53,557 bases of DNA from a bacterium. Its GTDB lineage: Bacteria > Patescibacteriota > Minisyncoccia > Phycocordibacterales > UBA12079. The notes below the pieces were generated by a model. It did no database searches. It was not told the origin of the DNA and worked only from the letters and a program-made list of their open reading frames with translations. Location: positions 1 through 53,557 of the forward strand of contig DAOWHH010000003.1 in NCBI GenBank assembly GCA_030641525.1. Direction: 5' to 3'. Position numbers and translations under genes: made by a program. Of the stretch, positions 848 through 42,913 are shown piece by piece. Each line of letters opens with the position of its first letter. The first letter of the stretch is position 1.

Positions 848-907
848 CTCCGGAGGTTGAACCTCCGGAGATAAAAATAAAAACCTCCGGAGGTTCAACC
901 TCCGGAG
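848..907. repeat. REP-like family A inverted doublet (848-870 and 885-907) between convergent pth and rpsA
   Basis: CTCCGGAGGTTGAACCTCCGGAG followed by its reverse complement. Confidence 0.92.
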
Positions 908-5417: not shown

Positions 5418-5455
5418 GATTTGAAAAAGTTTGGAAATTAGCCTAAAAAACTAAA

Positions 5456-5478
5456 ACTTGGACCTCCAAGGTCCAAGT
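5456..5478. repeat. Palindrome family C, ACTTGGACCT-CCA-AGGTCCAAGT
   Basis: 10-bp arms; a copy with one mismatch lies at about 8228-8250. Confidence 0.8.
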
Positions 5479-5559
5479 AATAATAAATAAAAAAATTAAT
5501 AAAGTAATACATTTTATTTTGACTAATTTTTTTATTTATTTTTTGGTACAATATATATA

Positions 5560-8217: not shown

Positions 8218-8269
8218 ATAGTCATTTACTTGGTCCTCCAAGGTCCAAGTAAAATATCCTTAAAAATCA

Positions 8270-21300: not shown

Positions 21301-22456
21301 ACAAGGTGAAGATGGTTATTTGAAAGTTGAACAAGACGCTATTATGTGGACAATGTTAAATGCAATAAAAGAACTGAACCTAAAAGTAGGTGAAGGTTTT
21401 TCAAATATAGCTGAAAATTTTGGAATAGGAACACCTATTGCTTATAGGAAATTACATATTGAGGAGGCTAGTGATAATCCACAAGTGAGGGTTGCTTATG
21501 ATGAAGATAATTTTGCTGAGATGCAAGTTTCGGCTGCAGGAGATTTAGCTATTACTACTCAAGGTGCAGATATTCGTTTTCCTGATGAAAATGTGTCAAT
21601 TTGTTCGGGTGGAGCTTGTTCAATAGATGTTGCTTCAATGGATGGAACAGGTAATTTAGCAGTTGAAAATATTGCTTTTGTTGCTGGGGCTTTAGGGGTG
21701 GGAACAAGTGAACCTCAACGAGTAGTTGATATTTTTGAAACTTATACTGATCCTCAATTAAGAATTTCTTATGATGAAGATTTGTATTCTGAATTTAATG
21801 TTTCGGCTACTGGAGATTTAGTTATTTCTGCGGAAGGAGGTGATATTTCAGTATTGGATGAAAACTTTAAGATTTGTTCTGGAAAAGGTTGTCCTAAAAA
21901 TGCGGATGAGTTAAAAGGTACAGGTAATTTGTTGGTTGAAAATAATTTATTAGCTCTCGGGAATGTGGGAATAAATACTACTTCACCAAGTTATACATTA
22001 GATGTAAATGGAACTTTGCGTGCCAAAGGTATTACTGATGCTTCAGATGAGAGATTAAAAAAGAATATACAAAGTCTTTCTTTGGATGAATCTGTTTTGG
22101 CTAAAGTTTTGAAATTAAGAGGGGTTAGTTATAATTGGAGGGATAACGAATCAGACAACTCTAAACCTACGGTTGGGCAAGGACAGATTGGTTTGATAGC
22201 TCAAGAACTTGAGAGAGAATATCCAGAATTGGTTGATACAGATAAAGAAGGTTTCAAATCTATTCAATATGGTAAATTTACAGCTGTTCTTCTTGAAGCT
22301 GTGAAAGAAATATTTGATATGAGTAGTAAGATAGAATATAGGAGTGCGAGATTGGAGAATAAGATGGTTCAATTGGAGAAAGAAAATCAAGATTTACAAA
22401 AGGGAATTCTAAAATTAGAAAATCGTATCAAAATTTTAGAAGAAAAAATGATCTAG
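12344..22456 (+). CDS. Giant secreted fibre/adhesin-like protein: about 25-30 GNVGIGT-delimited modules, a C1q/BclA-like domain, 7 LVIVD repeats and two peptidase S74 chaperone domains (start probably ATG 12353)
   Basis: Signal peptide, INYQGKLTD N-terminal domain, repeated GNVGIGT(D/S)SP, seven 43-aa YAYV..LKIIDISDP repeats, SDEKLK/SDERLK...IGLIAQ domains, C-terminal coiled coil. Confidence 0.9.
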   Translation: MFVMFKNLLRTKKITTLSNQQVGRKTTKYFWLSDSQWLSDSQQKYFVVFLIMIFSVLSPLNFIYSAFNPEINYQGKLTDSANVAVADGDYNLEFKLYTISSGGSAIWTESLIDTDKVTVTNGLFSVLLGNVTAISGVDFSQDLYLGVNVGGTGSPVWDGEMVPRKQIASVPSSFEADKLDGLDSTQFLRSDTTNIIGGNFDMGGFNLTNGGTATFANFIATSTTASSIFPLASTTQLTVSNDTWLAVDGGNVGIGTDSPSVELDVVGDINATGSIYLDTGNLGVGIVSTTYKAQMHEQSGAGSILQFTNTDSGTTDVDGSYVGIAGSESLGIWQYENDYMYFGTNNDEVARFHASGGFSFGDNYVSTDPGVDNMIIEGNVGIGTSSPLSMLSVRSTGTTDLLNLTETDGEEVFTVLENGNVGIGTDSPEEALDVVGGAIRLEANQYLKWDYNSAQANSRIWGIHTDQQVYGDFAITTADGQDDNFDLTRFYIDSSGNVGIGTDSPNTLFEIAKNDRENGAVMRITNSAQSSAWTTGDIVGTLDFYASDTSAPATRAKVIAIDTFNTAATNPSNVGLDFYTTDTNSLNFAMRIDSSGNVGIGTSSPSSMLSVRSTGTTDLLNLTETDGEEVFTVLENGNVGIGNTAPISELEIGLDTGGHSNLITIGKGYDVESGIQWSRAGIIDSQITNDASENMIFATDISNSIGGGDFKFRSNGGTELMVIETGGNVGIGTDSPDGPFEVVGVGNATTGESVKFATSDWDTGTSAGSALRINMGADTGNTYSIIQSVSGGNSLVADLAINPTGGNVGIGTDSPSDVLQVKTGTAKEGINIKGIDITNNNPQGALSFSDSSNVPVAKIVGYRGNTFDDGDIAFEVSQGASFSEAMRIDQTGNVGIGTSSPSVNLHVNDSSDAYIRITGGDAGKAVLQLGDQTDGNEARITYTASDRSLGLYTADTERMRIDKSGNVGIGTSSPDELLHIETSTDADLRIESTGDSYYSRVLFGVESGSDTSMGTYDDSYAGVSEYAGKFVTQTFERPIVFAAFGTTENDTIQFYTGGRDAADKRMVIDENGNVGIGTDSPGYKLSINGSGSVPVLYSTGEVTGSVAQIRGSGTGGSQLQITEAGQISWFIGVDDGETTLKIRDSAQANAPNLAIDSSGNVTITGTISEGGSLLSALYAPYAERGSNIDGAGLTWDGSELDVDALAVKRIHLKKSAETENLITAQVIGWDAQEYVDSDVYTHSTSSNNERVTVLSDGVYKIESNVNYVNTGAARVTMYMQLRVNGSNELTTRVKSYSRGSIYGDNNLKLSTIVSLSANDYVDLYGGYDDVDQTTAVNTTVGQSEFIISKIGTEAIANTWRPIDDTAVDGVTTESISSNWAYDHLNDTTDPHLISSFTSGNLNVARLPTGGAWNLTSDLNIDSNKLVIDNSSGYVGIGTDSPGSLLQLVEAGSGVQTMLGIHGSTVGVLGNGAEIHLSAGVTTLRGAKITAINTGGSSNDHALTFSTSASASVPAERMRIDSSGNVGIGTDSPSSDLEIEDTSNPTLKLDLEANPADGDNISTIYFEAGGYQAGRIRSVSEYAWPTSRRAGLAFDVLAMSAEVNNAMYINYLGNVGIGTDSPTGKLDIEDLTASANVDIDIRSAVDGSTRLRFGDADDNYIGGINYDHTTDDMFFLANNANRMVIDSGGNVGIGTETTTFDEGVGKVAILGSKSGNSGGLNIIDDSAQAVGTGGHIVFGGKYTDGGSYALGAKIEAEKTVSTTENYGFDLAFYARTHGANLDNSEKMRITSSGNVGIGTSSPLSMLSVRSTGTTDLLNLTETDGEEVFTVLENGNVGIGTDSPGAKLEVVNGTGIKITNSAASLLFLRRTSSLTSAMHFGNDDDDIYLGLGGDEKFHIATTDDIQASSMFTIQQDGNVGIGTDSPTRKLFVEFTDTTDYSSGGTILDGILIGNTQANTGGGGALTFLGEADDTAQAVATITGVVTSADNMDLVFETEGSGTRAERMRINSSGNVGIGTSSPDGILHTAVSDTSNIFTLERVDTSIGTDNIIADIKMKGGETTLGTVGRIIVSAESPWSADSSPAVMRFFTNPSGATNALERMRIDSSGNVGIGTSSPLSMLSVRSTGTTDLLNLTETDGEEVFTVLENGNVGIGTDSPGKKFTIAIQDVADPGSTAIQTENLSGTPRFALNNLNDGGWTTYDYYGGSYNSGITQKDGNVGIGDSSPTDTLHVQASAGNQVRIEGTGVDSDAEMHFDNDAQSWSIGIDGSDSNSLKLSTGVNVGTGDKVTIQSGGNVGIGETSPEAKLHIKKADTGQTPPVTSNMILEDTAATNYFTFLDATANSIQGLIMTDGAGADGYVIYDSDGKGMRFQSGTDEVARFWASGGFAFGDTFIDTDPGVDNMIVEGNVGIGTSSPDRNLDILSTSGTADMELATNDVQNSFFKFTSDKDGTGMNGFIGIDYSEDNFKITRDGFDGSAKGIIIDGDGEVGIGTSTPSEKLEVLGNVLQSPIDPVLEGSLGIGGNPYSVYVSGRYAYVVDIDSDDLKIIDISDPSSPSLSGSLSIGAYPRDVYVSGKYAYVVDSGSDDLKIIDISNPSLPTLAGSLSIGTDPHSIYVSGKYAYVVYYGSDDLKIIDISNPSLPTLTGSLSIGSGPLSVYVSGKYAYVIDYVSRDLKVIDISDPSSPSLSGSLGVGSNPVSIYVSGSYAYVVDTISDDLKIIDVSDPSSPSLSGSLSIGASPRDVYVSGKYAYVVDSGSDDLKIIDISNPSLPTLAGSLGIGGSPYSVYVSGRYAYVIDTDSDDLKVIDISGMETTSMIAHSLEAGNLQVRNDIIAQGQLQVTGGITAGSGGIYSTGPVGVFASTTAAALTINQHLTGDLLNVFDNTGSEIFTIEEGGNVGIGDSTPTYQLTLSTDSAYKLSSGTWSYTSDEKLKDINGDFTRGLEALDDLYPVYFNFKKDNEIGALSDREYIGLIAQDIQKTVPEAVTQGEDGYLKVEQDAIMWTMLNAIKELNLKVGEGFSNIAENFGIGTPIAYRKLHIEEASDNPQVRVAYDEDNFAEMQVSAAGDLAITTQGADIRFPDENVSICSGGACSIDVASMDGTGNLAVENIAFVAGALGVGTSEPQRVVDIFETYTDPQLRISYDEDLYSEFNVSATGDLVISAEGGDISVLDENFKICSGKGCPKNADELKGTGNLLVENNLLALGNVGINTTSPSYTLDVNGTLRAKGITDASDERLKKNIQSLSLDESVLAKVLKLRGVSYNWRDNESDNSKPTVGQGQIGLIAQELEREYPELVDTDKEGFKSIQYGKFTAVLLEAVKEIFDMSSKIEYRSARLENKMVQLEKENQDLQKGILKLENRIKILEEKMI
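12415..12490. repeat. Family B palindrome inside the 5' coding region of the giant gene
   Basis: AAAAACGACAAAATATTTTT-GGCTATCGGATAGCCAGTGGCTATCCGATAGCC-aac-AAAAATATTTTGTCGTTTTT; encodes WLSDSQWLSDSQ. Confidence 0.88.
13507..18786 (+). repeat. Four near-identical 93-bp cassettes (13507-13599, 14161-14253, 17749-17841, 18694-18786)
   Basis: ATCAATGTTATCAGTTAG(A/G)TCTACAGG...GGAGAATGG; encodes SMLSVRSTGTTDLLNLTETDGEEVFTVLENG. Confidence 0.92.
19890..20767 (+). repeat. Seven 129-bp LVIVD repeats (beta-propeller)
   Basis: 43-aa period; near-identical DNA blocks 516 bp apart (e.g. 19994 and 20510). Confidence 0.88.
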
Positions 22457-26712: not shown

Positions 26713-27438
26713 ATGAAGCAAAGACAAATAGAAATAATTCCAGCAATTCTTCCTAAAAATTTAAAAGAATTAGAAGACAAATTAAATTCTTTAAAAGAAG
26801 TTTATGCTAAGTTGGGTACTGATAAACCAACGGTTCAGGTTGATATTACTTATGGTGGTTTAATTTCTCTTTCAGAAAAATCTTTTGCATTTATTCATGA
26901 AATAATAATTCAAATGAAACCTATTTTGAGTAAATTTAACTTTAATTTTGAAATAGATGTTATTGTTGATTTTGAAGATGAAGAAGATTTTAAAATTTGG
27001 CGTGAATTAGATGTAGGTAGAATAATTTTTCATCATGAATCAAAACTTTCTAACAAATGGTTAAAGGATTTTAATTCAAATATAGAATTAGGTATATCTT
27101 TGAAACCAAAAACTTCTACTGAAGATATTTTTCAGTATTTAGAAAATATTGATGTTATTCAATTTATGGGGATAGATAATGTTGGATATCAAGGACAAAC
27201 TTTTAACCCTGATGTGATAAATAAAATAGAAGAATACAGAAAAGAAAATCCTGATATGATTATATCAGTAGATGGTGGGGTTAATTTAGAAAATGCTCAG
27301 AAATTAATTGATGCTGGTACAAATCGTTTGGTGATTGGCTCGGCGATTTTTGGGAAAAATAACTTTGCTTGTCAGCAAGCAGGTTCAGTTCAAGAAATCT
27401 TGGAAAAAATAAAAGAATTTGAAAATTTATCAAATTAA
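26713..27438 (+). CDS. rpe: Ribulose-phosphate 3-epimerase family protein
   Basis: IIPAIL, QVDI..G, QFMG...GYQGQ.F, ISVDGGVN, LVIGSAIF. Confidence 0.88.
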   Translation: MKQRQIEIIPAILPKNLKELEDKLNSLKEVYAKLGTDKPTVQVDITYGGLISLSEKSFAFIHEIIIQMKPILSKFNFNFEIDVIVDFEDEEDFKIWRELDVGRIIFHHESKLSNKWLKDFNSNIELGISLKPKTSTEDIFQYLENIDVIQFMGIDNVGYQGQTFNPDVINKIEEYRKENPDMIISVDGGVNLENAQKLIDAGTNRLVIGSAIFGKNNFACQQAGSVQEILEKIKEFENLSN

Positions 27439-27444
27439 AAAAAT

Positions 27445-28284
27445 ATGATTAAAGAAGAAAAAGAAAAATTAAAAAAAATAGCAAAAACTATTCGTGAAGA
27501 AATTATTAAAATGATTTCAGAGGCTGGTTCTGGTCATACAGCAGGATCTCTTGATATGGTGGAAATTTTGGTAGCAATATATTTTAATATTTTAAAATAT
27601 GATCCAAAAAATCCCGATTGGAAAGATAGAGATTATCTTATTTACTCTCATGGGCATACTTGCCCAGCTCTTTATGCTGTAATGGCTGAGGTTGGGTTTT
27701 TTCCAAAATCAGAATTAAGAACATTAAGGAAATTAGGGTCCCCTTTACAAGGTCACCCTCATAAAGAATGGTTAAAAGGTTTAGAAACAAGTTCTGGTCC
27801 CCTTGGTGAAGGGCTTTCGCAGGCAATTGGTATGGCTCTGGCTCATCGTATAAATGTAAATTTTCAAAATTCTGATGATAAATATTTTTATTGTTTGATG
27901 TCTGATGGTGAATTTCAGGAAGGACAAACTTGGGAGGCCTTAATGTTGGCTGGTAAAGAAAAATTAAATAAACTTATTGCTATAGTAGATAGAAATAATA
28001 TACAAATTAGTGGAAATACTGAGGATGTTATGCCTTTAGAATCTTTTAAAAATAAATTAGAATCTTTTAATTGGAGTGTTATGGAAATAGATGGTCATAA
28101 TTTTGAAGAAATTATAGGTGCGATTGAAGATGCAAAAAAGGTTTTAGATAAACCAATAATTATTATAGCTAATACTATTGCTGGTAAAGGTTTTAAAGAA
28201 TTTGAGGGTGATTATCGTTGGCATGGTAAAGTTCCCACTCCAGAACAAGCCAAAGAAATACTTAATGATTCAATAGGAAAATAA
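27445..28284 (+). CDS. Transketolase, N-terminal (TPP-binding) subunit
   Basis: SGHTAGSL, LQGHP, SSGPLGEGLS, SDGEFQEGQTWEA, WHGK. Confidence 0.93.
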   Translation: MIKEEKEKLKKIAKTIREEIIKMISEAGSGHTAGSLDMVEILVAIYFNILKYDPKNPDWKDRDYLIYSHGHTCPALYAVMAEVGFFPKSELRTLRKLGSPLQGHPHKEWLKGLETSSGPLGEGLSQAIGMALAHRINVNFQNSDDKYFYCLMSDGEFQEGQTWEALMLAGKEKLNKLIAIVDRNNIQISGNTEDVMPLESFKNKLESFNWSVMEIDGHNFEEIIGAIEDAKKVLDKPIIIIANTIAGKGFKEFEGDYRWHGKVPTPEQAKEILNDSIGK

Positions 28285-28287
28285 AAC

Positions 28288-28370
28288 CTCCGGAGGTTGA
28301 ACCTCCGGAGGTAAATATGGAGAGGTTGTTGAGCCTCTCCAGAAAATCTCCGGAGGTTCAACCTCCGGAG
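28288..28370. repeat. Family A inverted doublet upstream of the RAYT, with a degenerate third hairpin between the copies
   Basis: Copies at 28288-28310 and 28348-28370; TGGAGAGGttgttgagCCTCTCCA at 28318-28341. Confidence 0.92.
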
Positions 28371-28434
28371 GTTTTAAAAAAAATATTAGAGGGACAAGAT
28401 CTCCAGAAGTTTATTAATTAAATAATTTATTTCT

Positions 28435-29103
28435 ATGAAAAAACCCTCTTTTTTAAATAACCATATTTATCATATCTATAATCGTGGAGTAGAGAAAAGG
28501 AATATCTTTTTAGATGATCATGATTATTTTCAATTTATTCATAATCTCTATGAATTCAATGATGTAAATCCTGTTTCTAAATTAAAAAATAGTATCTTTC
28601 AATCTACGGAGGTTGAAAGAGAAAATAATAAAAATGAAAGAGAACCGTTAGTTGAAATATTAGCTTTTGTATTAATGCCGAATCATTATCATTTATTATT
28701 GAGGCAATTAGTGGATGATGGTATATCTAGGTTTTTGCAAAAAATAGGAACAGGGTTTACTATGAGTTTTAATCAGAAATATGATAGGGTAGGTTGTTTA
28801 TTCCAAGGAAGATTTAAAGCTGTTTTAGTTGAAGAAGAAAGTCATCTTTTATATCTTCCTATGTATATACATTTAAATCCTATTAAAATCTCCGGAGGTT
28901 CAACCTCCGGAGATTGGGAGTTTCTGAAAAATTATAGGTGGAGTAGTTTACATGATTATATTGGAAAAAAGAATTTTCCATCAGTAATTTCAAAAGAATT
29001 TTTATTGGATACATTGGGGAGTTCAAAAGAATATCAAGAAGAATTAAAAAGTTGGTTGAAAAAAGATAATAATTTTAAAGATATAATAGATGAAATCAAA
29101 TAA
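28435..29103 (+). CDS. REP-associated tyrosine transposase (RAYT; HUH Y1, IS200-like fold)
   Basis: YHIYNRG..K..IF, MPNHYHLL (HUH), G.LFQGRFKA, YIHLNP (catalytic Tyr), YRWSS; flanked by palindromes. Confidence 0.92.
   Translation: MKKPSFLNNHIYHIYNRGVEKRNIFLDDHDYFQFIHNLYEFNDVNPVSKLKNSIFQSTEVERENNKNEREPLVEILAFVLMPNHYHLLLRQLVDDGISRFLQKIGTGFTMSFNQKYDRVGCLFQGRFKAVLVEEESHLLYLPMYIHLNPIKISGGSTSGDWEFLKNYRWSSLHDYIGKKNFPSVISKEFLLDTLGSSKEYQEELKSWLKKDNNFKDIIDEIK
28890..28912. repeat. Family A element inside the RAYT coding sequence
   Basis: CTCCGGAGGTTCAACCTCCGGAG, read as SGGSTSG. Confidence 0.92.
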
Positions 29104-29121
29104 TTTTGATTTTTATAGATA

Positions 29122-29146
29122 TTCCGGAGGTTGAACCTCCGGAGGT
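29122..29146. repeat. Family A element downstream of the RAYT
   Basis: TTCCGGAGGTTGAACCTCCGGAGGT. Confidence 0.9.
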
Positions 29147-29195
29147 AAATTCAAAAAAGGTTGAATTTCACGGATTTTTTTATTATGTTTAATAT

Positions 29196-30278
29196 ATGAA
29201 TAGAAAAAAAGGAAAGAAAAAGGTGTTTGTAGGTATGTCGGGAGGAGTGGATTCTTCTTTAACTGCTGCTTTACTCAAAAAACAAGACTATGATGTAGTT
29301 GGTGTTTTTATAAAGGTTTGGCAACCGGATTTTGTGGAATGTTCATGGATGGAAGATCGTTTAGATGCGATGAGAGTTTGTGCTACTTTAGATATTCCTT
29401 TTTTGGATTTGGATTTGGAGGATATATACAAAAAGGAAGTTTTTGATTATATGATCAATGAATATGAAAAAGGTAGGACACCTAACCCAGATGTGATGTG
29501 TAATAAGAAAATTAAATTTGGTGGATTTTTAAAATTTGCTTTAGAAAAAGGAGCTGATTATATTGCTACTGGTCATTATGTTAGATTACAAAAGGGAAAG
29601 CTTTTAAAGGGTATAGATGGAAACAAAGATCAATCTTATTTTTTATGGACTTTGACTCAAAAACAATTAAAACATTGTGTATTTCCTATAGGTGAATATA
29701 CAAAACCACAAGTAAGAAAATTGGCGAAAAAATTTAATTTAAGTACTGCTCAAAAAAAAGAAAGTCAAGGTTTGTGTTTTGTTGGGAAGGTAGATATGAA
29801 AGAGTTTTTAGAAAGATTTATTCCAAGAAAAAAAGGTAATGTTTTGAATCAAAAAGGAGAAACCATAGGTGAACATGACGGTGTATATTATTATACTTTA
29901 GGACAAAGACACGGATTTGAAATTACAAAAAAGAGGATTGATGATAAAGCTTATTATATAATAAGGAAAGATTTTGAAAAAAATACACTGATTGTTTCAG
30001 ATAATCAATCTCCGGAGGTTGAACCTCCGGAGATTGGGGTTAAGGGTGGGGGAATAGAGTTGAGTAATGTTAATTGGATATCTGGGAAAAGTCCTGATAT
30101 AAATAAAAAATATTTAGCTAGAATAAGGTATAGGCAGTCACTATTATTGTGTAATTTAAAAGAAAAGGAAGGAAAATTAATAATTAATTTTGATAAAACT
30201 CAAAAAACAGCTTCAGAAGGTCAGTCTGTCGTTATTTATGATGGAGATATTTGTTTAGGGGGAGGGGTTATAAATTAG
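29196..30278 (+). CDS. mnmA: tRNA 2-thiouridylase MnmA
   Basis: MSGGVDSS, TPNPDVMCN, ATGHY, KDQSYFL, ESQGLCF, YTLGQR, GQSVVIY. Confidence 0.97.
   Translation: MNRKKGKKKVFVGMSGGVDSSLTAALLKKQDYDVVGVFIKVWQPDFVECSWMEDRLDAMRVCATLDIPFLDLDLEDIYKKEVFDYMINEYEKGRTPNPDVMCNKKIKFGGFLKFALEKGADYIATGHYVRLQKGKLLKGIDGNKDQSYFLWTLTQKQLKHCVFPIGEYTKPQVRKLAKKFNLSTAQKKESQGLCFVGKVDMKEFLERFIPRKKGNVLNQKGETIGEHDGVYYYTLGQRHGFEITKKRIDDKAYYIIRKDFEKNTLIVSDNQSPEVEPPEIGVKGGGIELSNVNWISGKSPDINKKYLARIRYRQSLLLCNLKEKEGKLIINFDKTQKTASEGQSVVIYDGDICLGGGVIN
30006..30036. repeat. Family A element inside mnmA
   Basis: CAATCTCCGGAGGTTGAACCTCCGGAGATTG, read as QSPEVEPPEI. Confidence 0.92.
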
Positions 30279-30511
30279 TCAAAAGTTCGTAAAGTTCATA
30301 AGGTTGAAAGTCTAAACTAATAATTCTCAATTTCCAATTCACAATTTTCAACCAATGGATTGATTTTGGGTTTAAAAATTCACTGAAAATTGAAAATTAG
30401 AATTCTTCATTAAGAAAATAAATTATGTTTTGTGATAAGTGTTATTATTATTAAAATCTGGAGAGGTTAAACCCCCTGAAGATTTCTTTTGTAGATTTTA
30501 GAATAAAAAAA

Positions 30512-30591
30512 CTGACTTAAATATTATTATTTAAGTCAGGTTTTAAGATTTTAAAATAAAATATCTGACCTAAATATTAATATTTAAGTCA
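30512..30591. terminator. Two related tandem hairpins TGAC(T/C)TAAATA...TATTTAAGTCA downstream of the minus-strand orphan gene
   Basis: Hairpins at 30512-30539 and 30566-30591. Confidence 0.55.
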
Positions 30592-30595
30592 ATTA

Positions 30596-31216
30596 TTAAA
30601 ATTTCACGGTAACAGCAACTCCTCTATAATCAAAACCAATAATAGGATAGATCTCCCATGTTGACATAGGGTATTTTATTTGAATACAATTTAAGATAGT
30701 AGCCGATATGATAATCCCTCCTATTAATTTTGTATTACCACCAGATTTCTCTATACCATAAAAATCGGTATATTCACCGTTAGAATGAATCTCATTATGT
30801 TTCCCGTTTATAGCTACATTAAAAATAGGATAAAAAATTGCCCACATCATAGCTCCAGTGGAAAAAGAACTATTTTTCCATTTATCATCAGACAGTAAAT
30901 AAGTTGCCCAAGAAATGTCAGAAATATACCCTGCCAAACAAATCCTTCTTTTTTTATAATCAGGAATATCCTCAGGTAGAACATATATAAAGTGCATTGG
31001 CATCCCTTTTTTTCCAAATAAAGGGTTATTTCTCCATTCTATATCCACCCCATAAGCTCTGGCTGTTAAATGATGAGCAAATTCATGTGATATACCTACT
31101 GCAATTGCACCAAGCAAACCTGAACTACCATTTTCAACTCCTTCCCAAAATTCAACAGCATGAGCTGAAGAATTAATAAATGAAAAAGCAAGAATTAATA
31201 ATATTATCTTTTTCAT
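30596..31216 (-). CDS. Hypothetical exported/membrane protein with an HExxH motif (start corrected to ATG 31216)
   Basis: SD-like GGGGG before MKKIILL signal peptide; HEFAH; the track's TTG at 31291 is part of a TTGACA -35 element. Confidence 0.7.
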   Translation of the reverse strand: MKKIILLILAFSFINSSAHAVEFWEGVENGSSGLLGAIAVGISHEFAHHLTARAYGVDIEWRNNPLFGKKGMPMHFIYVLPEDIPDYKKRRICLAGYISDISWATYLLSDDKWKNSSFSTGAMMWAIFYPIFNVAINGKHNEIHSNGEYTDFYGIEKSGGNTKLIGGIIISATILNCIQIKYPMSTWEIYPIIGFDYRGVAVTVKF

Positions 31217-31338
31217 ATATCCCCCTAAAGAATATCTGATTTTCAATAAAAACTTTGATAATAATATAGCTATTAAATATATAATTGTCAAGGAATATGA
31301 TAGTCGTTTTATAATTATACTTTTGATATAATAAAAGT

Positions 31339-32187
31339 GTGAACGAAAAGAAACAAATATATATTGTAAAAGCTAATGGTGATAAAGAACTTTTTGATGA
31401 GAAAAAACTGGAAGCTTCAATGAAAAGGGCAGGTGCTGATTTTAAAATAATTACCGAAATAATTAGGGTAATTAAAAGTGAATTAAAAGACGGTATGACA
31501 ACTGCTGAGATTTATCGTCAAGCTTTTAGATTACTTAATGTTGGTGCCGCTACTCCTGCAATTAAATATTCTTTGAGAAAGGCTGTTATGGAGTTGGGTC
31601 CTCAGGGTTTTGCTTTTGAAGATTTTGTTGGAGCTATTTTTAAAGCTTTGGGTTTTAAAGTTCGTTTAAGACAAACAATTGGTGGTTTATGTGTTCAACA
31701 TGAAGTTGATATTTTAGCTGAAAATGAGGAAAAATTTTTAATTGGTGAAATAAAGTTTCACAATCGTCAAGGAATTAAATCAGATTTAAAGGTAGTTTTG
31801 TATGTAAAAGAGAGGTTTGATGATATAAGTAAGGGTGAATTCTACGGAAATATAAACAAGAGTTTAAAGATAGAAAAATGGCTTATTACTAATACGAAAT
31901 TTACTACCAATGGTATTCAATATGCTGAGTGTCATCCAGACTTGCATTTAATGAGTTGGAATTATCCGAAAAGAGGTAATTTACAAGAACTAATTACTGA
32001 ATCAGGGTTATATCCTTTAACTACATTAAAAACATTAAGCTCAAAGGATAAACAAATATTTTTAAAAAATAATATTGTATTATGTAGAGATATATTAAAA
32101 GGAGGTGAAAGATTGTTTAATTTATTAGGTATATCTCTTGATAAATTAGAAGGTACAATAAAAGAGATTAATAAATTATTAAATTAA
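31339..32187 (+). CDS. ATP-cone domain plus Mrr-like PD-(D/E)xK restriction endonuclease domain protein
   Basis: IVKANGDKELFDEKKL (ATP cone), GFAFEDFV, HEVDILA..GEIKFH, LITNTKFT. Confidence 0.85.
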   Translation: MNEKKQIYIVKANGDKELFDEKKLEASMKRAGADFKIITEIIRVIKSELKDGMTTAEIYRQAFRLLNVGAATPAIKYSLRKAVMELGPQGFAFEDFVGAIFKALGFKVRLRQTIGGLCVQHEVDILAENEEKFLIGEIKFHNRQGIKSDLKVVLYVKERFDDISKGEFYGNINKSLKIEKWLITNTKFTTNGIQYAECHPDLHLMSWNYPKRGNLQELITESGLYPLTTLKTLSSKDKQIFLKNNIVLCRDILKGGERLFNLLGISLDKLEGTIKEINKLLN

Positions 32188-32205
32188 AAATAGAAAGTAA
32201 AATTT

Positions 32206-32754
32206 ATGTATGATTTTATAAAATTTAAAGAAGATATTAATAATATAAAAAATTGGTTAATTAAAGAATTTTCTAATATTAGAACAGGAATTATATCTAT
32301 TTCTATATTGGATAATGTAAAATCAGAAAATTACGGTGTATTAACTCCGATAAACCAATTAGCTAATATTGCAATAGAAGATGTTAAAACTTTAAGAATT
32401 AGTCCTTGGGATCAATCGCAGATTAAAGAAATAGAAAAGGCAATTATAAATGCAAATTTAGGAGTTTCAATAGCGGTAGATGATAAGGGAATTAGATTAT
32501 CTTTTTCGGATTTGACAGGAGAAAGAAGGGTAGAACTTGTAAAAAATGCTAAAGATAAATTAGAACAGGCTAAAATTTCTTTAAGAGTAGAGAGAGATAA
32601 GGTTTGGAATGATATCCAAGATAAAGAAAAAAAGGATGAAATCACTCAAGATGATAAATTTAGATTGAAAGATGAAATGCAAAAAATTATTGATGATGAA
32701 ACGAAGGTTTTGGTTGAATTATTTGAGAAAAAGGAGAAAGAGATAAAGGATTAA
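32206..32754 (+). CDS. frr: Ribosome recycling factor
   Basis: IRTG..S..LD, PWD, IEKAI, LT.ERR.ELVK, KKEKEI. Confidence 0.95.
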   Translation: MYDFIKFKEDINNIKNWLIKEFSNIRTGIISISILDNVKSENYGVLTPINQLANIAIEDVKTLRISPWDQSQIKEIEKAIINANLGVSIAVDDKGIRLSFSDLTGERRVELVKNAKDKLEQAKISLRVERDKVWNDIQDKEKKDEITQDDKFRLKDEMQKIIDDETKVLVELFEKKEKEIKD

Positions 32755-32900
32755 AATGCAAAAACCAAATATCAAAAATCAAAATGATAATGAAAAAAGC
32801 AAAAACTTTAAAGTAATAAACAAATTAAGTGAAACAAGGTTTATGGCTTTAAGTTAATTATTTTGTTAGAATTAAGAATCATTTATTTTGATTTTTTATT

Positions 32901-33998
32901 ATGTCTATTTTAATCTTTATTATAGTTCTTGCGTTTCTTATCCTAGTTCACGAATTAGGGCATTTTATTTTTGCTAAAAAATCAGGGATGTTGGTTGAGG
33001 AATTTTCTATTGGTTTTCCGCCTCATATTTTCAGTTTTAAAAAAGGAGAAACTAAATATTCTATTGGAGCCATTCCTTTTGGTGGTTATGTTAAAATATT
33101 TGGTGAAGATTATCTTGAATCAAACAGTTCAGAAGAAAAGAATTCTCACAGACGTTTTACTAATCAATCTAAAAAAGCACAAGCATTGGTGTTAGCAGCT
33201 GGAGTATTTTTTAATTTTTTGTTGGCGTGGGTTCTTTTTTCTATGGCTTTTGTTTCTGGAATGCCTGTTTCTGCTAGTCAATTTGAAAATGAATCAATAC
33301 AGGATCCTGCTTTAGTTTTAATTAATGTTTTAAAAGATTCTCCTGCTTATAATGCAGGTTTGAAAGTAGGTGATAATATTTTATATTTAAATGATGGAAT
33401 TGAATCTCTTCAAGATTTTACAAACATTGAAGATGTTACGGGTTTTATTGCCACTCGAGGAGAAAAAGAAATTGAAGTTTTGTATAAAAGAGGGGGGGAG
33501 ACTAATTTAACCAATCTTATTCCTCAGGATGATTTAATTGAAGGTAAATCAGCCATAGGTGTATCTTTGGACATAATGGGAATTGTTGATTTCCCTATTC
33601 ATCTTGCAATAATAGAAGGAGCTAAAACAACAGCCTCTTTATCGGTAGCAACAATAATTGGTTTAAGTAGTTTTGTGGGAGGAATTTTTACAGGTAATAG
33701 TGATTTATCTCAAATATCTGGTCCTATTGGAATAATTTCTATGGTAGGAACTGCTTTTGATTTTGGTTTTCTGTATTTGATAAGTTTCATTGCCCTTATT
33801 TCTATAAATTTAGCTGTGATAAATTTGATTCCTATTCCTGCTCTTGATGGTGGGCGTCTTTTATTTGTTTTGATTGAGGCTATAAAAGGTACTCCTATCA
33901 AATCAAAATTAGCAAATGTTTTTAATTTAGCTGGGTTTTTATTTCTAATACTTTTGATGTTGATTATCACCATTAGTGATATTTCTAAATTTTTCTAA
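32901..33998 (+). CDS. rseP: RIP metalloprotease RseP (M50, PDZ)
   Basis: HELGHF, FSIGFPP, PFGGYV, SGPIGI, NLIPIPALDGG. Confidence 0.95.
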   Translation: MSILIFIIVLAFLILVHELGHFIFAKKSGMLVEEFSIGFPPHIFSFKKGETKYSIGAIPFGGYVKIFGEDYLESNSSEEKNSHRRFTNQSKKAQALVLAAGVFFNFLLAWVLFSMAFVSGMPVSASQFENESIQDPALVLINVLKDSPAYNAGLKVGDNILYLNDGIESLQDFTNIEDVTGFIATRGEKEIEVLYKRGGETNLTNLIPQDDLIEGKSAIGVSLDIMGIVDFPIHLAIIEGAKTTASLSVATIIGLSSFVGGIFTGNSDLSQISGPIGIISMVGTAFDFGFLYLISFIALISINLAVINLIPIPALDGGRLLFVLIEAIKGTPIKSKLANVFNLAGFLFLILLMLIITISDISKFF

Positions 33999-34030
33999 AA
34001 AATAAAAAAGTACATTTTATTTTTTTATTT

Positions 34031-34157
34031 ACTGCACAAAAACTACGACCGTGGTTTTTGTGCAGTTTTTGTTAATCAGGTTTTTAGAATCGGAGGTTCT
34101 GAAATCGGAGGTCCAACCTCCGATTCCACAATCTCCGGAGGTTGGACCTCCGGAGAT
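34031..34157. repeat. Palindrome cluster: one family D copy plus family A variants
   Basis: 34031-34066 ACTGCACAAAAACTACGACCGTGGTTTTTGTGCAGT; 34103-34125 AATCGGAGGTCCAACCTCCGATT; 34131-34157 ATCTCCGGAGGTTGGACCTCCGGAGAT. Confidence 0.88.
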
Positions 34158-34359
34158 GATTATGAAGACGGGAGGTGCGATCTCCACAGATTATAAATCA
34201 AAAATAAATTTGGAGAGACATAATCTTTCTGAATTTTATAAATATAAAGCTGTAATAAGATTATTGGTATGAGGGTTGATAAATAGATATAATATCTATA
34301 TTATATAAAGCAGTATTGTTTTTCTTTAGTAAAATTTAATCTTTGAAGGAGTTGGTGAT

Positions 34360-34947
34360 ATGAACGAGAATAACGACATTTTGTCAGAGTTATTTGAAAA
34401 ATATATGGGATATCTTGATCTTTGTAGCTTTCCACAGGAAATTTTGGATGTTTTTCGAGGAAAGAAAATGGAGTTGTTAAGTAAGGTTTCCGAAGTGAAA
34501 ATTCCTAGAAAATTTCTTGAATTTGTTCCAATTATACCGTTTAAGATAATTAATCTGAGAGATCAGATAAAAAAGGTGAGAGGATCTAGCGGTTCGCTTA
34601 TTGAAGAGAACCTGTTTGATATTGCTGAAAATTTACCAGACGAGCCATATTTTATTTATGGTGTTGAAATTGGGATGTATACTAAAGGTACCCCTCCCCA
34701 GATAGCCGAGTTGCTTATTGAAAGAGTAAAAAGATCCCCACTTACTCTTGCTGAGGGAATGGGTGTTATTTTTTATTATCCTGAAATTCTTAGAAACTGC
34801 TACCTTGATTGTATTGGGACGCGATACGAGAAACGTAACAAAATACCTCATATCTTATTGCGTGAAGGAAAAATAAGATTAGGTTTAGGAGGAGAAAAAC
34901 TTTTCAGTAGCCAATGGGGCTCACCTTCTTGTTTTGGGCGAGTTTAA
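34360..34947 (+). CDS. Hypothetical protein (possibly DUF5701-like)
   Basis: SD AAGGAG; PYFIYGVE.G, SPLTLAEG...PEIL, C.GTR, WGSPSC; has its own promoter and terminator. Confidence 0.65.
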   Translation: MNENNDILSELFEKYMGYLDLCSFPQEILDVFRGKKMELLSKVSEVKIPRKFLEFVPIIPFKIINLRDQIKKVRGSSGSLIEENLFDIAENLPDEPYFIYGVEIGMYTKGTPPQIAELLIERVKRSPLTLAEGMGVIFYYPEILRNCYLDCIGTRYEKRNKIPHILLREGKIRLGLGGEKLFSSQWGSPSCFGRV

Positions 34948-34969
34948 TGTTAGTAGTAAATTTAGAGAG

Positions 34970-34997
34970 AAAGGCAGAAATAATCTGCCTTTTTTTT
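34970..34997 (+). terminator. Intrinsic terminator
   Basis: AAAGGCAGA-aataa-TCTGCCTTT followed by a T-run. Confidence 0.75.
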
Positions 34998-35027
34998 ATT
35001 TTAAACCTACCTGTCTGGTAAACAGAT

Positions 35028-35052
35028 CTCCGGAGGTTGAACCTCCGGAGGT
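35028..35052. repeat. Family A element upstream of proS
   Basis: CTCCGGAGGTTGAACCTCCGGAGGT. Confidence 0.92.
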
Positions 35053-35100
35053 TTATTTTATTTTGATAAAATTATCATAATGAGGTAATATTATATTTAT

Positions 35101-36330: not shown

Positions 36331-36335
36331 TCTGT

Positions 36336-38181: not shown

Positions 38182-38420
38182 TAGCAGTTACTATATCTTT
38201 TTTAGGTGTTTTTGTTTTACCTTGGTGGTTTTTTATTTTTTTATTATTTTTCTTTTTTGTTAAATTTCCTTCATTTTATGAAGGACTGATAATAGCTTTA
38301 ATTGCAGATTTATTGTATTCAGTTCCTAGGGATATTTTTTTGAATTTACCTGTATTTTTTATATTTGCATGTTTGTTTTTTTTCTTGAGTCCAATAATAA
38401 AAAAACAATTACGAATTTAA
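38157..38420 (+). CDS. Small membrane protein in the mreD position
   Basis: Hydrophobic, EGLIIALIADLLY; synteny between mreC and PBP2. Confidence 0.65.
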   Translation: MGSNFTRIIAVTISFLGVFVLPWWFFIFLLFFFFVKFPSFYEGLIIALIADLLYSVPRDIFLNLPVFFIFACLFFFLSPIIKKQLRI

Positions 38421-38450
38421 ATCTCCGGAGGTTGAACCTCCGGAGATTTA
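38418..38450. repeat. Family A element overlapping a stop codon
   Basis: TAAATCTCCGGAGGTTGAACCTCCGGAGATTTA, a perfect 33-bp palindrome. Confidence 0.92.
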
Positions 38451-38480
38451 GAATAGGAGGAAATATGCTAGAATGGAAAG

Positions 38481-40172: not shown

Positions 40173-40255
40173 GTCAAAAATTGTGCTGAGCTTGTAATAA
40201 TAATCATTATTGATATAATTAATTTTGAAATTATTTTAAAAAACACAAAAACGTC

Positions 40256-40714: not shown

Positions 40715-40808
40715 AAAGTAGAGGGTAGAAGGTGGAAAGTAGTGAAAAAATTTGCTCTGCAAGTTTTTCTCTACCACATTCTTCTTTCTATATTCTACCT
40801 ACTAAACC

Positions 40809-42278: not shown

Positions 42279-42317
42279 GAATTGCTTTTAGATAAAGTTT
42301 TTGTTAGTATATTGCCT

Positions 42318-42764: not shown

Positions 42765-42785
42765 TTAAAATGAAAAAATATAAAT

Positions 42786-42873
42786 CTCCGGAGGTTCAAC
42801 CTCCGGAGATTTTTAATTATATCAAATATTGACATTGCATTGATAAACCTCCGGAGGTTGAACCTCCGGAGGT
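42786..42873. repeat. Family A inverted doublet (42786-42808 and 42849-42871)
   Basis: A TTCAA-orientation copy followed by a TTGAA-orientation copy. Confidence 0.92.
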
Positions 42874-42884
42874 TTAAAAACTTA

Positions 42885-42913
42885 TTGACATTTTTTACAC
42901 TATAGGTTAGTAT
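42885..42913 (+). promoter_or_regulatory. Putative rpoB operon promoter
   Basis: TTGACA-17-TAGTAT. Confidence 0.65.

What the first reader, a model, noticed from the sequence alone, without database searches (positions are those of the whole stretch)
28288..29146. RAYT transposase with a non-canonical double-palindrome REP family dispersed across the contig
Seen: a HUH/Y1 protein (MPNHYH, YIHLNP, YRWSS) is bracketed by the 23-bp core CTCCGGAGGTT(G/C)AACCTCCGGAG. This core occurs at 848, 885, 28288, 28348, 28890, 29122 (1 mismatch), 30010, 34133 (1 mismatch), 35028, 38423, 42786 and 42849. The fullest unit is two 12-bp palindromes in tandem (ACCTCCGGAGGT-tga-ACCTCCGGAGGT, 15-bp period), so it can fold as one long hairpin or as two short ones. 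Three loci are inverted doublets. No external GTAG foot is present; GGAG lies inside the stem. Known: RAYTs/TnpA(REP) are flanked by their cognate REPs and REPINs. Inference: this is a recently active RAYT-REP system of a distinct architecture in a CPR genome.
Basis: partly seen in the sequence, partly recalled or inferred. Interest (0 to 1): 0.85.

Follow-up and report, generated by a model that had tools for sequence, protein, structure and literature searches.

The report
RAYT transposase with own palindromic repeats
A domesticated single-strand-DNA transposase gene in a tiny-genome (CPR-type) bacterium is surrounded by, and even carries in its own reading frame, copies of a 23-base hairpin repeat that it most likely spreads: a known kind of system, seen here in a new form and lineage.

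Summary
All 12 listed copies of CTCCGGAGGTTSAACCTCCGGAG exist (0 expected by chance). The 584.6-kb genome holds 22 copies, 12 of them on this contig. None was found in 60 relatives.

ORF 28435-29103 is a HUH/Y1 protein whose nearest solved structure is E. coli TnpA(REP). The catalytic Tyr is Y144 of YIHLNP, not YRWSS.

A second paralog (37% identity) has its own, different palindrome family of about 19 copies.

In 31 loci from relatives and 80 other CPR loci, homologs carry locus-specific perfect palindromes upstream, downstream and in frame at recurrent loops. A GC-rich 15-mer is shared between flank and own CDS in 24/31 and 36/80 loci, against 21/930 and 16/6320 cross pairs.

RAYT-less relatives lack large palindrome families. 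One keeps a decayed solo palindrome where the gene sits in its kin.

Verdict: a genuine RAYT-REP system and a new variant of a known kind. In-frame REPs inside tnpA(REP) genes were already reported for another subclass (PMC6006769).

The parts
28435..29103 (+). RAYT1: HUH/Y1 (TnpA-Y1 class 2) gene, 222 aa. HUH is H84/H86, nucleophile Y144, N148.
   Evidence: ORF. Pfam Y1_Tnp scores 26.2 bits against a cut-off of 23. NF047646 scores 50.7 bits against 80. The AF2 model has pLDDT 87.5. The Foldseek top hit is 4ER8, E 4.1e-7. Invariant columns are N83 H84 H86 Y144 N148 S170.
28288..28310 (.). REP1 copy (centre G), 8 nt after the stop of the transketolase N-half gene. It is the left member of the upstream doublet.
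28319..28340 (.). Variant hairpin GGAGAGGTTGTTGAGCCTCTCC in the spacer of the doublet.
   Evidence: Sequence. It folds as the inner hairpin of the 91-nt structure.
28348..28370 (.). REP1 copy (centre C), right member of the upstream doublet. The stretch 28284-28374 folds as a REPIN-like long hairpin of -42.4 kcal/mol.
28603..28617 (+). Remnant half copy TCTACGGAGGTTGAA inside RAYT1 (encodes STEVE), at the 'pre-HUH' loop. Orthologs carry full palindromes at this site.
28890..28912 (+). REP1 copy in frame inside RAYT1 (ISGGSTSG), between the Y motif and the WSS motif. The full palindrome is AATCTCC...GGAGATT, 28887-28915.
   Evidence: It falls in a model loop at residues 154-159.
29122..29144 (.). 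REP1 copy (1 mismatch), 19 nt after the RAYT1 stop codon.
30010..30032 (+). REP1 copy in frame inside mnmA (29196-30278). It encodes SPEVEPPE in the linker between PF20259 and PF20258.
848..907 (.). REP1 inverted doublet (848-870 centre G, 885-907 centre C) between two convergent ORFs.
34103..34155 (.). Degenerate REP1-like hairpin (AATCGGAGGTCCAACCTCCGATT) followed by REP1 copy 34133-34155 (TTGGA apex).
35028..35050 (.). REP1 copy, called as a bidirectional terminator-like site.
38423..38445 (.). REP1 copy 36 nt upstream of the ORF that starts at 38481.
   Evidence: Logan contigs break here.
42786..42871 (.). REP1 inverted doublet (42786-42808 centre C, 42849-42871 centre G).
5454..5480 (.). 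Copy of the second family, REP2 (ACTTGGACCTCCAAGGTCCAAGT). It is cognate to the paralog RAYT2 on contig C2, not to RAYT1.
8226..8252 (.). REP2 copy.

Best explanation
This is a REP-RAYT system. ORF 28435-29103 encodes a single-copy, vertically inherited HUH/Y1 single-strand DNA endonuclease/transposase of the TnpA(REP)/RAYT kind.

The 23-31-bp perfect palindrome AA-Y-CTCCGGAGGTTSAACCTCCGGAG-R-TT (REP1) is its cognate non-autonomous element.

Inferred mechanism, by analogy with E. coli TnpA(REP) and IS608:
- On transiently single-stranded DNA the repeat folds into a 12-14-bp hairpin.
- The enzyme binds the hairpin and cleaves next to it. A metal held by H84/H86/N148 is used, and Y144 forms a 5'-phosphotyrosine link.
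- The enzyme rejoins the strand elsewhere. This seeds or replaces copies, preferentially close to its own gene.

Consequences:
- Copies that land in intergenic DNA persist. Many sit just after stop codons and look like terminators.
- Copies that land in frame in tolerant loops also persist. Hosts include MnmA, SecA, enolase, TsaD, PriA, HolB and the RAYT itself.
- The repeat sequence drifts and is homogenised within each genome, so each RAYT lineage has its own palindrome.

Shown here: anatomy, fold, copy distribution, species specificity, co-variation, and decay where the gene is lost. Inferred: catalysis, the cleavage site, and the way copies spread.
For: (1) Protein.
- Pfam Y1_Tnp is above its cut-off.
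- The best PDB sequence hit and the best fold hit are both 4ER8 TnpA(REP): E 0.057, and Foldseek E 4.1e-7 with TM 0.66 on the target.
- The HUH, Y and N residues align with H59/H61, Y115 and N119 of the E. coli enzyme and are invariant in 31 homologs.

(2) Repeat.
- 12 copies in the window against 0 expected.
- 22 in the genome: 13 exact and 9 with one mismatch.
- 31 copies with the looser 15-nt core.
- 25 of those 31 lie outside ORFs of 100 aa or more, although about 82% of the genome is in such ORFs.
- The hairpin energy is -15 kcal/mol, z about -7.

(3) Link to the gene.
- Copies lie at -148, -86 and +20 nt of the gene and inside it.
- 10 of 22 copies lie within 15 kb of it (p about 6e-8).

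(4) Specificity.
- 0 of 60 relatives hold the 23-mer at up to 1 mismatch.
- Three other genomes' palindromes were found 8, 5 and 9 times in their own genome. In the four other genomes tested each, they were found 0 times, apart from a single one-mismatch hit.

(5) A second paralog in the same genome (37% identity) is flanked by a different palindrome. That family has about 19 copies, 13 of 18 on the two contigs next to the paralog.

(6) Co-variation.
- A 15-mer with at least 6 G/C is shared between the flanks and the locus's own CDS in 24 of 31 loci, against 21 of 930 cross pairs.
- In 80 further CPR loci the figures are 36 of 80 against 16 of 6320.

(7) Loss.
- No Y1_Tnp was found in G008, G019 or G029.
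- Families of 6 or more copies were seen only in the RAYT-bearing G000 and G011. The largest were 5 copies in G019 (400 kb read) and 3 in G008 (311 kb read).
- In G008 the transketolase gene and mnmA are 41 bp apart, with one imperfect palindrome where G000, G002, G007, G010 and G012 have the RAYT.
- G008's related repeats are imperfect relics.
Against: - The protein scores below NCBIfam's REP_Tyr_transpos cut-off (50.7 against 80 bits).
- The sequence match to 4ER8 is weak (E 0.057).
- REP1 has no 5' GT[AG]G guide and no bulge. Both were needed for binding and cleavage by the E. coli enzyme (passages of PMC3479197). Recognition must therefore differ, and it is untested.
- Copy numbers are small, 5-31 per genome.
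- The nearest upstream and downstream copies are inverted in 19 loci and direct in 18. There is no fixed end arrangement as in REPtrons or IS200.
- RAYT-less G008 still has two perfect palindromes present 3 times each, and G019 has one present 5 times. Only part of those genomes was read.
- The census compares 2 genomes with 2.
- 15 of the 31 core copies have a TTGGA apex. They lie mostly on other contigs (C3, C5, C13), and none borders RAYT1.
- No mobility was observed. The public contigs show no clean joint that removes a copy.
- The genome is 87% complete, so copy counts are lower bounds.
Confidence: 0.8

Rival explanations
1. The hairpins are host regulatory structures, such as intrinsic terminators or mRNA-stabilising stem-loops. 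They are kept alike by selection and short-tract gene conversion. The Y1 protein merely happens to sit among them.
For: - Many intergenic copies lie 8-60 nt after a stop codon.
- The six best terminator-like sites in 27400-43100 are all REP1 copies. That scan found 21 sites against 5.8 expected.
- Gene conversion of REPs is an old proposal (Higgins 1988, seen only as a reference title).
Against: - It does not explain why each of more than 100 homologous genes has its own palindrome on both sides and in frame inside.
- It does not explain why two paralogs in one genome each sit amid their own family.
- It does not explain why copies lie in frame inside essential genes.
- It does not explain why the family is degenerate where the gene is gone.
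- A terminator role can be secondary to RAYT-driven spread.
Confidence: 0.07
2. The gene with its flanking hairpins is an autonomous IS200-like insertion sequence, and the dispersed hairpins are its solo ends or MITEs. On this reading it is a selfish, horizontally moving element rather than a resident RAYT.
For: - Hairpins lie on both sides of the gene, as at IS200/IS605 ends.
- Relatives have up to 13 matches per genome.
- Some homologous frames hold stop codons (4 rows).
Against: - The two copies in G000 are only 37% identical.
- RAYT1 orthologs (63-72% identity) keep the same neighbours (transketolase N-half, then RAYT, then mnmA) in G002, G007, G010 and G012, which span three genera.
- The Y motif is Y-x3-N-P as in class 2, not the Y-x3-Q of IS200 (Table 1 of PMC6006769).
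- The ends have no fixed orientation.
Confidence: 0.08
3. The internal, in-frame copies are not merely tolerated insertions. They are functional sites through which the enzyme senses or limits itself, for example by binding or cutting its own gene or transcript. Selection would then keep them matched to the enzyme's specificity.
For: - 23 of 31 loci have a perfect palindrome inside the CDS.
- In 80 further loci, 26 have one at the pre-HUH loop, 12 after the Y motif, 13 in the tail and only 2 between HUH and Y.
- At the post-Y site six orthologs keep the same frame. Four of them carry the stem of their own genome's current repeat.
- The two RAYT genes of G000 hold 3 copies and 1 remnant in about 1.35 kb.
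Against: - The sites coincide with low-confidence, length-variable loops, where insertions are cheapest.
- 8 of 31 loci have no internal palindrome, and two orthologs carry decayed ones.
- Housekeeping genes carry such copies too.
- A bias to act near the gene, followed by purifying selection, would give the same picture.
Confidence: 0.25

Closest known systems
E. coli TnpA(REP)/RAYT with REP/BIME (PDB 4ER8; PMC3479197, passages read)
   Same: - HUH/Y1 fold; it is the best structural and sequence match in the PDB.
- HUH, the Tyr and the Asn of Y-x3-N-P align.
- The gene is flanked by its own hairpin repeats, which recur in the genome.
   Different: - REP1 is a perfect, bulge-free palindrome without a 5' GTAG.
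- The protein has about 60 more residues, in the form of an N-terminal extension and a helical tail.
- The genome holds tens of copies, not hundreds.
- Copies cluster near the gene.
- Copies lie inside the gene.
TnpA-Y1 subclass 2.4 of Quentin et al. 2018 (PMC6006769, sections 12 and 15 read)
   Same: REPs are inserted in frame inside the tnpA(REP) gene itself, besides the flanking copies. Its 'double foot' palindromic REPs are also alike.
   Different: - Motifs there are NH[IFV]H / WQ / YIxNNP. Here they are NHYH / FQ / YIHLNP.
- Insertions there lie between HuH and Y. Here they lie before HUH, after Y and in the tail.
- That subclass is reported from Cyanobacteria, Bacteroidetes and others, not from CPR.
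TnpA-Y1 subclass 2.1 (Bertels group 1; TIRYT) of the same paper
   Same: - The motif line NH[YF]H / FQ / Y[IV]HLNP and the SS tail motif match.
- Median length there is 238 aa; this protein has 222 aa (Table 1; alignment).
   Different: - The authors found no REP-like sequence near 2.1 genes. Here nearly every homolog has one.
- No HTH-type Pfam match in the tail at E up to 0.01.
- Assignment with the authors' own profiles could not be done.
REPIN-RAYT systems of Pseudomonas (Bertels and Rainey; PMC3116915 abstract only, PMC5581495 passages)
   Same: - Single-copy, vertically inherited RAYTs.
- Several RAYTs per genome, each with its own repeat family.
- Inverted doublets.
- Repeat populations tied to the presence of the gene.
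   Different: - Much smaller populations.
- Each unit is itself a perfect palindrome, so a doublet is not needed to form a long hairpin.
- Frequent in-frame copies in essential genes.
Rickettsia palindromic elements and other intragenic REPs (PMC3733652, passages)
   Same: Palindromic repeats are inserted in frame into housekeeping genes of a reduced genome and are tolerated in loops.
   Different: The units are much shorter (23-37 bp). A cognate Y1 gene sits next to them. No sequence comparison with RPEs was made here.

Membership tests
RAYT / TnpA(REP) | HUH motif and nucleophilic Tyr in a Y-x3-N-P helix on a Y1 (IS200-like) fold | tested here: met
   Pfam Y1_Tnp 26.2 bits against a cut-off of 23. 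N83 H84 H86 Y144 N148 are invariant in 31 sequences. They align to H59/H61/Y115/N119 of 4ER8. The top Foldseek hit is 4ER8.
RAYT / TnpA(REP) | Score over the curated NCBIfam equivalog cut-off (NF047646) | tested here: not met
   50.7 bits against a cut-off of 80.
RAYT / TnpA(REP) | Gene flanked by palindromes that recur, over-represented, elsewhere in the same genome | tested here: met
   Copies at -148, -86 and +20 nt. 22 copies in the genome and 0 expected in the window. The paralog has its own family.
RAYT / TnpA(REP) | Low copy number, divergent paralogs, vertical inheritance (not IS-like duplicates) | tested here: met
   Two paralogs at 37% identity. Orthologs keep the same gene neighbours in 4 relatives of 3 genera. 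No gene tree was built.
RAYT / TnpA(REP) | REP carries a 5' GT[AG]G guide at the foot of the hairpin | tested here: not met
   The REP1 consensus has no such tag. REP2 ends in CTAC...GTAG, but these bases form part of the stem, with CTAC at the 5' end.
RAYT / TnpA(REP) | Enzyme binds and cleaves its REP as single-stranded DNA | not testable with these tools
   Needs purified protein.
REPIN (inverted REP doublet) | Two REPs in inverted orientation, able to fold into one long hairpin | tested here: met
   Three doublets in the window. The stretch 28284-28374 folds at -42.4 kcal/mol, z -13.6. Most copies are singletons or overlapping tandems.
TnpA-Y1 subclass 2.1 (Quentin 2018) | Motifs NH[YF]H, FQ, Y[IV]HLNP, SS tail; length about 238 aa | tested here: met
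   NHYH, LFQG, YIHLNP, WSS; 222 aa, compared by eye with Table 1.
TnpA-Y1 subclass 2.1 (Quentin 2018) | C-terminal HTH-like domain (Bac_DnaA_C, HTH_23 or HTH_28 likeness) | tested here: inconclusive
   No such Pfam family at E up to 0.01. The model shows four helices at 172-221.
TnpA-Y1 subclass 2.1 (Quentin 2018) | Placement with the authors' HMM profiles or tree | not testable with these tools
   The profiles are not on hand and supplements are closed.
TnpA-Y1 subclass 2.4 (Quentin 2018) | Motifs NH[IFV]H, WQ, YIxNNP | tested here: not met
   NHYH, FQ, YIHLNP.
TnpA-Y1 subclass 2.4 (Quentin 2018) | [quoted passage not shown] | tested here: not met
   The copies are in frame, yes. Only 1 of 29 internal palindromes in 31 loci lies between HUH and Y, and only 2 of 80 loci have one there.
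IS200/IS605 TnpA | Y-x3-Q motif, near-identical multiple copies, fixed left and right end hairpins | tested here: not met
   Y-x3-N-P. 37% identity between the copies. End orientation is 19 inverted against 18 direct.

The most novel reading that the evidence does not exclude
In CPR bacteria a large, so far undescribed branch of RAYT-like enzymes does more than scatter hairpins: it overwrites resident ones.

At orthologous sites the stem has changed by compensatory multi-base swaps that match every other copy in that genome. Examples are TCC/GGA in G000 against TGT/ACA in G007. The sites concerned are two loops of the enzyme's own gene and a linker of mnmA.

This would be enzyme-driven concerted evolution of a repeat population. 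It would reach into the coding sequence of essential proteins and of the enzyme itself. The internal copies might also serve as self-recognition or self-limiting sites.
Probability: 0.3. Interest if true: 0.8.

Novelty: new variant of a known kind. Interest (0 to 1): 0.6.

Why it matters
REP-RAYT systems are known mainly from Proteobacteria. The protein class that this one resembles by its motifs (subclass 2.1, group 1) was reported to have no REPs.

Here it has them, in a lineage with some of the smallest and most streamlined bacterial genomes.

- Repeat populations can persist under strong genome reduction.
- They repeatedly add 7-13 residues to essential proteins: SecA, enolase, TsaD, PriA, HolB and MnmA in this genome.
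- Orthologous sites carry lineage-specific stems. This is a natural data set for testing how REP populations are homogenised, an open question since the 1980s.
- Perfect, GTAG-less hairpins imply a recognition mode different from the solved E. coli complex.
- In practice these repeats break assemblies. Gene callers and aligners should also expect the peptide inserts.

Tried and rejected
- The 12-mer sharing test was too noisy: A/T-rich words and shared apex cores gave 180 of 930 cross matches. It was replaced by 15- and 17-mers with a G/C floor.
- A fixed orientation of flanking copies was sought and not found: 19 inverted against 18 direct.
- A guide tetranucleotide outside REP1 was sought and not found.
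- Sequencing runs: six DNA contig runs from 3 studies were listed, and no RNA holder was listed.
- Four runs were laid at 85% likeness.
  - One 17.7-kb contig, possibly from the source sample, spans 27482-38448 with 2 differences.
  - Contigs end at the copies at 38423 and 42786/42849.
  - The listed joints have short sides (20-57 nt) and mostly come from other organisms. None cleanly removes a repeat or the gene.
  - Contigs cannot show rare variants.
- A 4-base deletion variant at 35048-35050 in one contig was not pursued.
- The last block of the script crashed after printing 9 of 18 linker rows. It was not re-run, because the hairpin table above it was complete.
- In one search the fifth sequence (L002:50-90) was mis-aimed and says nothing about REP2.
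- In one search one requested stretch did not exist.
- Not attempted: the search for homologous proteins, the search of protein representatives, complex prediction and the atlas search.
- Not built: a tree with reference RAYT groups, because no reference sequences were available without typing them from memory.
- Literature: six full-text searches listed no paper that treats RAYT or REP in CPR.
  - One preprint holds both terms once each (10.1101/2023.02.02.526783; seen in the listing only).
  - One mentions K07491 beside an archaeal rbcL (10.64898/2026.05.13.725050; passages read).
  - Only the top 10-15 rows of each listing were seen.
- Supplements were closed and not requested. Additional file 1 (Fig. 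S10) and Table S1 of PMC6006769, and Additional file 3 of PMC3733652, may bear on how new the internal sites and the host genes are.
Full report
OBSERVATION. The pattern CTCCGGAGGTTSAACCTCCGGAG occurs 12 times in the window, at exactly the listed places. One mismatch occurs at 29122 and one at 34133. No match was found in 100 dinucleotide shuffles. The window is contig C9 of an 18-contig, 584,555-base assembly with 29.6% G+C and 87% estimated completeness. Genome-wide there are 22 copies, 13 exact and 9 with one mismatch: 12 on C9, 6 on C3, 2 on C2, and 1 each on C5 and C13. With the 15-nt core GGAGGT[TC][GC][AG]ACCTCC there are 31 copies.

Oriented by the central base, the consensus is AA-Y-CTCCGGAGGTTG-R-ACCTCCGGAG-R-TT, and nothing is conserved beyond it. 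As single-stranded DNA one unit folds as a single hairpin with a 12-14-bp stem and a 3-nt loop, at about -15 kcal/mol (z about -7). The doublet upstream of the gene (28284-28374) folds as a REPIN-like 91-nt hairpin of -42.4 kcal/mol. The arm CTCCGGAG is itself self-complementary. This produces the 15-bp 'double palindrome' and overlapping triple arrays on C3 and C5. Relatives' repeats lack that property.

THE GENE. ORF 28435-29103 (222 aa) matches Pfam Y1_Tnp just above its cut-off (26.2 against 23 bits). It matches NCBIfam REP_Tyr_transpos below its cut-off (50.7 against 80).
- Its only PDB sequence hit is E. coli TnpA(REP), 4ER8, at E 0.057.
- An AlphaFold2 model built from 31 homologs has mean pLDDT 87.5. 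Its best Foldseek match is 4ER8 (E 4.1e-7), followed mostly by IS608 and ISDra2 transposases, with tRNA-His guanylyltransferase chains ranked among them.
- The alignment puts H84/H86 on H59/H61, Y144 on the nucleophile Y115 and N148 on N119 of the E. coli enzyme. The catalytic tyrosine is therefore that of YIHLNP, not of YRWSS.
- By its motifs (NHYH, FQ, YIHLNP, WSS tail; 222 aa) the protein fits the second motif line of subclass 2.1 of Quentin et al. 2018 (Table 1). That is a comparison by eye, not a test with their profiles.

Two copies are inside genes, in frame. The copy at 28890 encodes ISGGSTSG within the RAYT itself, between the Y motif and WSS. The copy at 30010 encodes SPEVEPPE in the linker between two domains of MnmA. 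A remnant half copy (28603-28617, STEVE) lies at a second place in the RAYT. Both places are loops of reduced confidence in the model: block means are 55-67 for residues 51-70 and 80 for residues 151-160.

Genome-wide, 6 of the 31 REP1-core copies and 7 of 19 copies of the second family lie inside ORFs of 100 aa or more. The host proteins are PriA, an RNase II/R-type enzyme, TsaD (two copies), SecA, DNA polymerase III delta', enolase, an LTD/PKD protein, MnmA and both RAYTs. The other copies are intergenic, although about 82% of the genome lies in such ORFs. Many sit 8-60 nt after a stop codon. The six best terminator-like sites in 27400-43100 are REP1 copies.

A SECOND SYSTEM IN THE SAME GENOME. 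A paralog at C2:73942-74535 (37% identity) is flanked by a different palindrome, CTACTT(G/A)GACCTCCAAGGTC(C/T)AAGTAG. It holds two half copies in frame (SAPRSK) at the same two places of the protein as in RAYT1. The 15-mer search for this family gave 21 hits at up to one mismatch. The exact-core listing gives 19 copies, and one of them is the same locus seen twice because the ends of C6 and C2 overlap by 141 nt. That leaves 18 copies, 13 of them on C2 and C6 beside the paralog (p about 3e-7). Likewise 12 of 22 REP1 copies lie on C9 (9.2% of the assembly, p about 9e-8), and 10 lie within 15 kb of RAYT1. Each family thus clusters around its own gene.

RELATIVES.
- The protein was found in 45 of 61 genomes of the order, counting G000, with up to 13 matches per genome.
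- The REP1 23-mer was found in none of the 60 relatives at up to one mismatch.
- In 31 loci (G000's two and 29 from relatives) nearly every homolog has its own perfect palindrome upstream, downstream and inside the CDS. These palindromes are of odd length, usually with centre S and apex T[TC]S[AG]A.
- A 15-mer with at least 6 G/C is shared between the flanks and the locus's own CDS in 24 of 31 loci, against 21 of 930 cross pairs. With 17-mers the figures are 20 of 31 against 7 of 930. All cross hits are between related loci.
- Three such palindromes searched in five genomes each were found only in their own genome (8, 5 and 9 copies), apart from a single one-mismatch hit elsewhere.
Of the best 80, many bear CPR names as deposited, many others are labelled only 'bacterium' or 'uncultured bacterium', and 12 bear other group labels: ten Gammaproteobacteria, one Bdellovibrionales and one Bathyarchaeia.
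- In those 80 loci, 57 have an upstream palindrome and 42 a downstream one. Sharing between flank and own CDS is 36 of 80 against 16 of 6320 cross pairs.

WHERE THE INTERNAL COPIES LIE. In the 31 loci, 23 hold at least one perfect internal palindrome (stem of 8 or more, G+C 30% or more). Of the 29 palindromes:
- 18 lie in the loop before the HUH strand;
- 7 are listed after the Y motif, one of which is really at the C-terminal end;
- 3 lie in the tail;
- 1 weak one lies between HUH and Y.

In the 80 further loci, the numbers of loci are 26, 12, 13 and 2. This differs from subclass 2.4, where in-frame REPs were reported between HuH and Y (section 12 of PMC6006769).

CONCERTED CHANGE AT ORTHOLOGOUS SITES. 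RAYT1 orthologs (63-72% identity) keep the order transketolase N-half, RAYT, mnmA in G002, G007, G010 and G012.

At the post-Y site six orthologs keep the same frame (G/R-G-S-T-S from GGT TCA ACC) and, in four of them, the same distance to the conserved DWEF codons. The stem, however, is that of the genome's own external repeat in L001 (CTCCGGAGG), L005 (CTGTGGAGG), L009 (TATCGAGG) and L010 (GATAGAGG). L004 and L006 carry imperfect or older versions. The pre-HUH site behaves alike in L003, L004, L005 and L007.

In mnmA, G003 carries its own repeat (GGAGAGGTCGGACCTCTCC) at the linker where G000 has REP1. G001 carries another type there, and RAYT-less G008 carries an imperfect one. Several relatives also carry in-frame doublets after ATGHYVRL.

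Either insertion recurs at the same permissive spots, or resident copies are replaced in place. The data do not decide between these.

LOSS.
- No Y1_Tnp was found in G008 (98% complete), G019 or G029.
- A census of perfect hairpins (stem of 9 or more, G+C 35% or more) found 123 in G000, against 1-6 in three Markov shuffles.
- Families of 6 or more copies occur only in G000 and G011 (3 RAYTs; 400 kb read). The largest families in G019 (400 kb read) and G008 (311 kb read) have 5 and 3 copies.
- In G008 the transketolase gene and mnmA are 41 bp apart, with one imperfect palindrome in between.
- G008's repeats of the RAYT1 type are imperfect relics.
- This is 2 genomes against 2, and only partial sequence was read, so it is supportive rather than conclusive.

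MECHANISM. Shown: a Y1/HUH protein with intact catalytic residues; a cognate, species-specific hairpin family concentrated around the gene; co-variation across more than 100 loci; decay after loss of the gene. Inferred from the E. coli and IS608 work (PMC3479197 passages): hairpin recognition on single-stranded DNA, metal-assisted cleavage by Y144, and rejoining elsewhere. The E. coli enzyme needs a 5' GTAG and a bulge, and both are absent here, so recognition must differ. Flanking copies are as often direct as inverted (19 against 18). That argues against IS-like fixed ends.

COMPARISON AND NOVELTY.
- Already in print: RAYT-REP association; several RAYTs per genome, each with its own REPs; REPs inside tnpA(REP) genes in frame (subclass 2.4); and REPs inside other genes.
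- New here, as far as six full-text searches show:
  - the system in CPR genomes;
  - its association with a subclass-2.1-like protein, a class for which the authors found no REPs;
  - perfect GTAG-less palindromes;
  - internal copies at other places of the protein;
  - strong clustering of copies near the gene;
  - lineage-specific stems at orthologous coding sites.
- I rate it a new variant of a known kind, with interest 0.6.

Noticed in passing
window 5454-5480 and 8226-8252; G000 contigs C2 and C6: A second palindrome family (ACTTGGACCTCCAAGGTCCAAGT, about 19 copies) is cognate to the paralog RAYT2 at C2:73942-74535. Two of its copies lie in this window.
   Followed up: yes
G000 C2:28945, C2:29740, C10:50889, C6:19947, and twice in RAYT2 (C2:74076, C2:74343): There is a 'coding' variant of REP2, CTTAGTGCTCCAAGGTCYAAGT, which encodes LSAPRSK. 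Its stem is weakened to 6 bp. It is found mostly inside ORFs (TsaD twice, SecA, RAYT2 twice).
   Followed up: partly
G000 contigs C3, C5, C13 and window 34133: REP1 splits into two apex types: TTSAA (16 core copies, 13 on C9) and TTGGA/TCCAA (15 copies, mostly on C3). None of the second type borders RAYT1. A further cognate gene may be missing from the 87%-complete assembly.
   Followed up: no
G000, many contigs: A third class of G+C-rich hairpins has a GCAAAGC or GCGAAGC apex (for example ATCGCAAAGCGAT x5, ACCGCAAAGCGGT x4, GTCGCAAAGCGAC x4). No Y1 gene was assigned to it. These may be terminators or another repeat family.
   Followed up: no
L036, L038, L043, L044, L045 (mnmA of relatives), after ATGHYVRL, about aa 135-160: In-frame palindromes, as doublets in L044 and L045 and as adjacent pairs in L036, L038 and L043, lie at one site of MnmA. 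They have genome-specific inner stems, mostly between ACTTGG...CCAAGT feet. G000 lacks them.
   Followed up: partly
L033 554-1450 (G008 transketolase N-half): The G008 protein has an extra segment, LEDLDVGCLSGKERK, that G000's lacks. It resembles peptides encoded by GGACATCSGATGTCC-type palindromes in other genomes.
   Followed up: no
L002 about 900-1200 (G000 C2, beside RAYT2): ARAGORN calls one tRNA-Leu. About 100 nt away its 5' half is repeated, followed by a different hairpin. This may be an integration scar or a broken duplicate.
   Followed up: partly
G000 C6 3' end and C2 3' end: The two contig ends overlap by exactly 141 nt in reverse complement, so C6 and C2 abut at the RAYT2 locus. 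The break falls at a REP2 copy.
   Followed up: yes
window 12344-22456: A single open frame of 3370 codons (TTG start) lies here. It was not examined.
   Followed up: no
relatives G001, G003, G007, G009, G010, G017, G033, G051, G057, G058: A second, distant Y1 class is present there: frames of about 225-230 aa (355 aa in G058) that match only residues 72/73-163/172 of RAYT1 at 27-34% identity. It was not found in G000.
   Followed up: no
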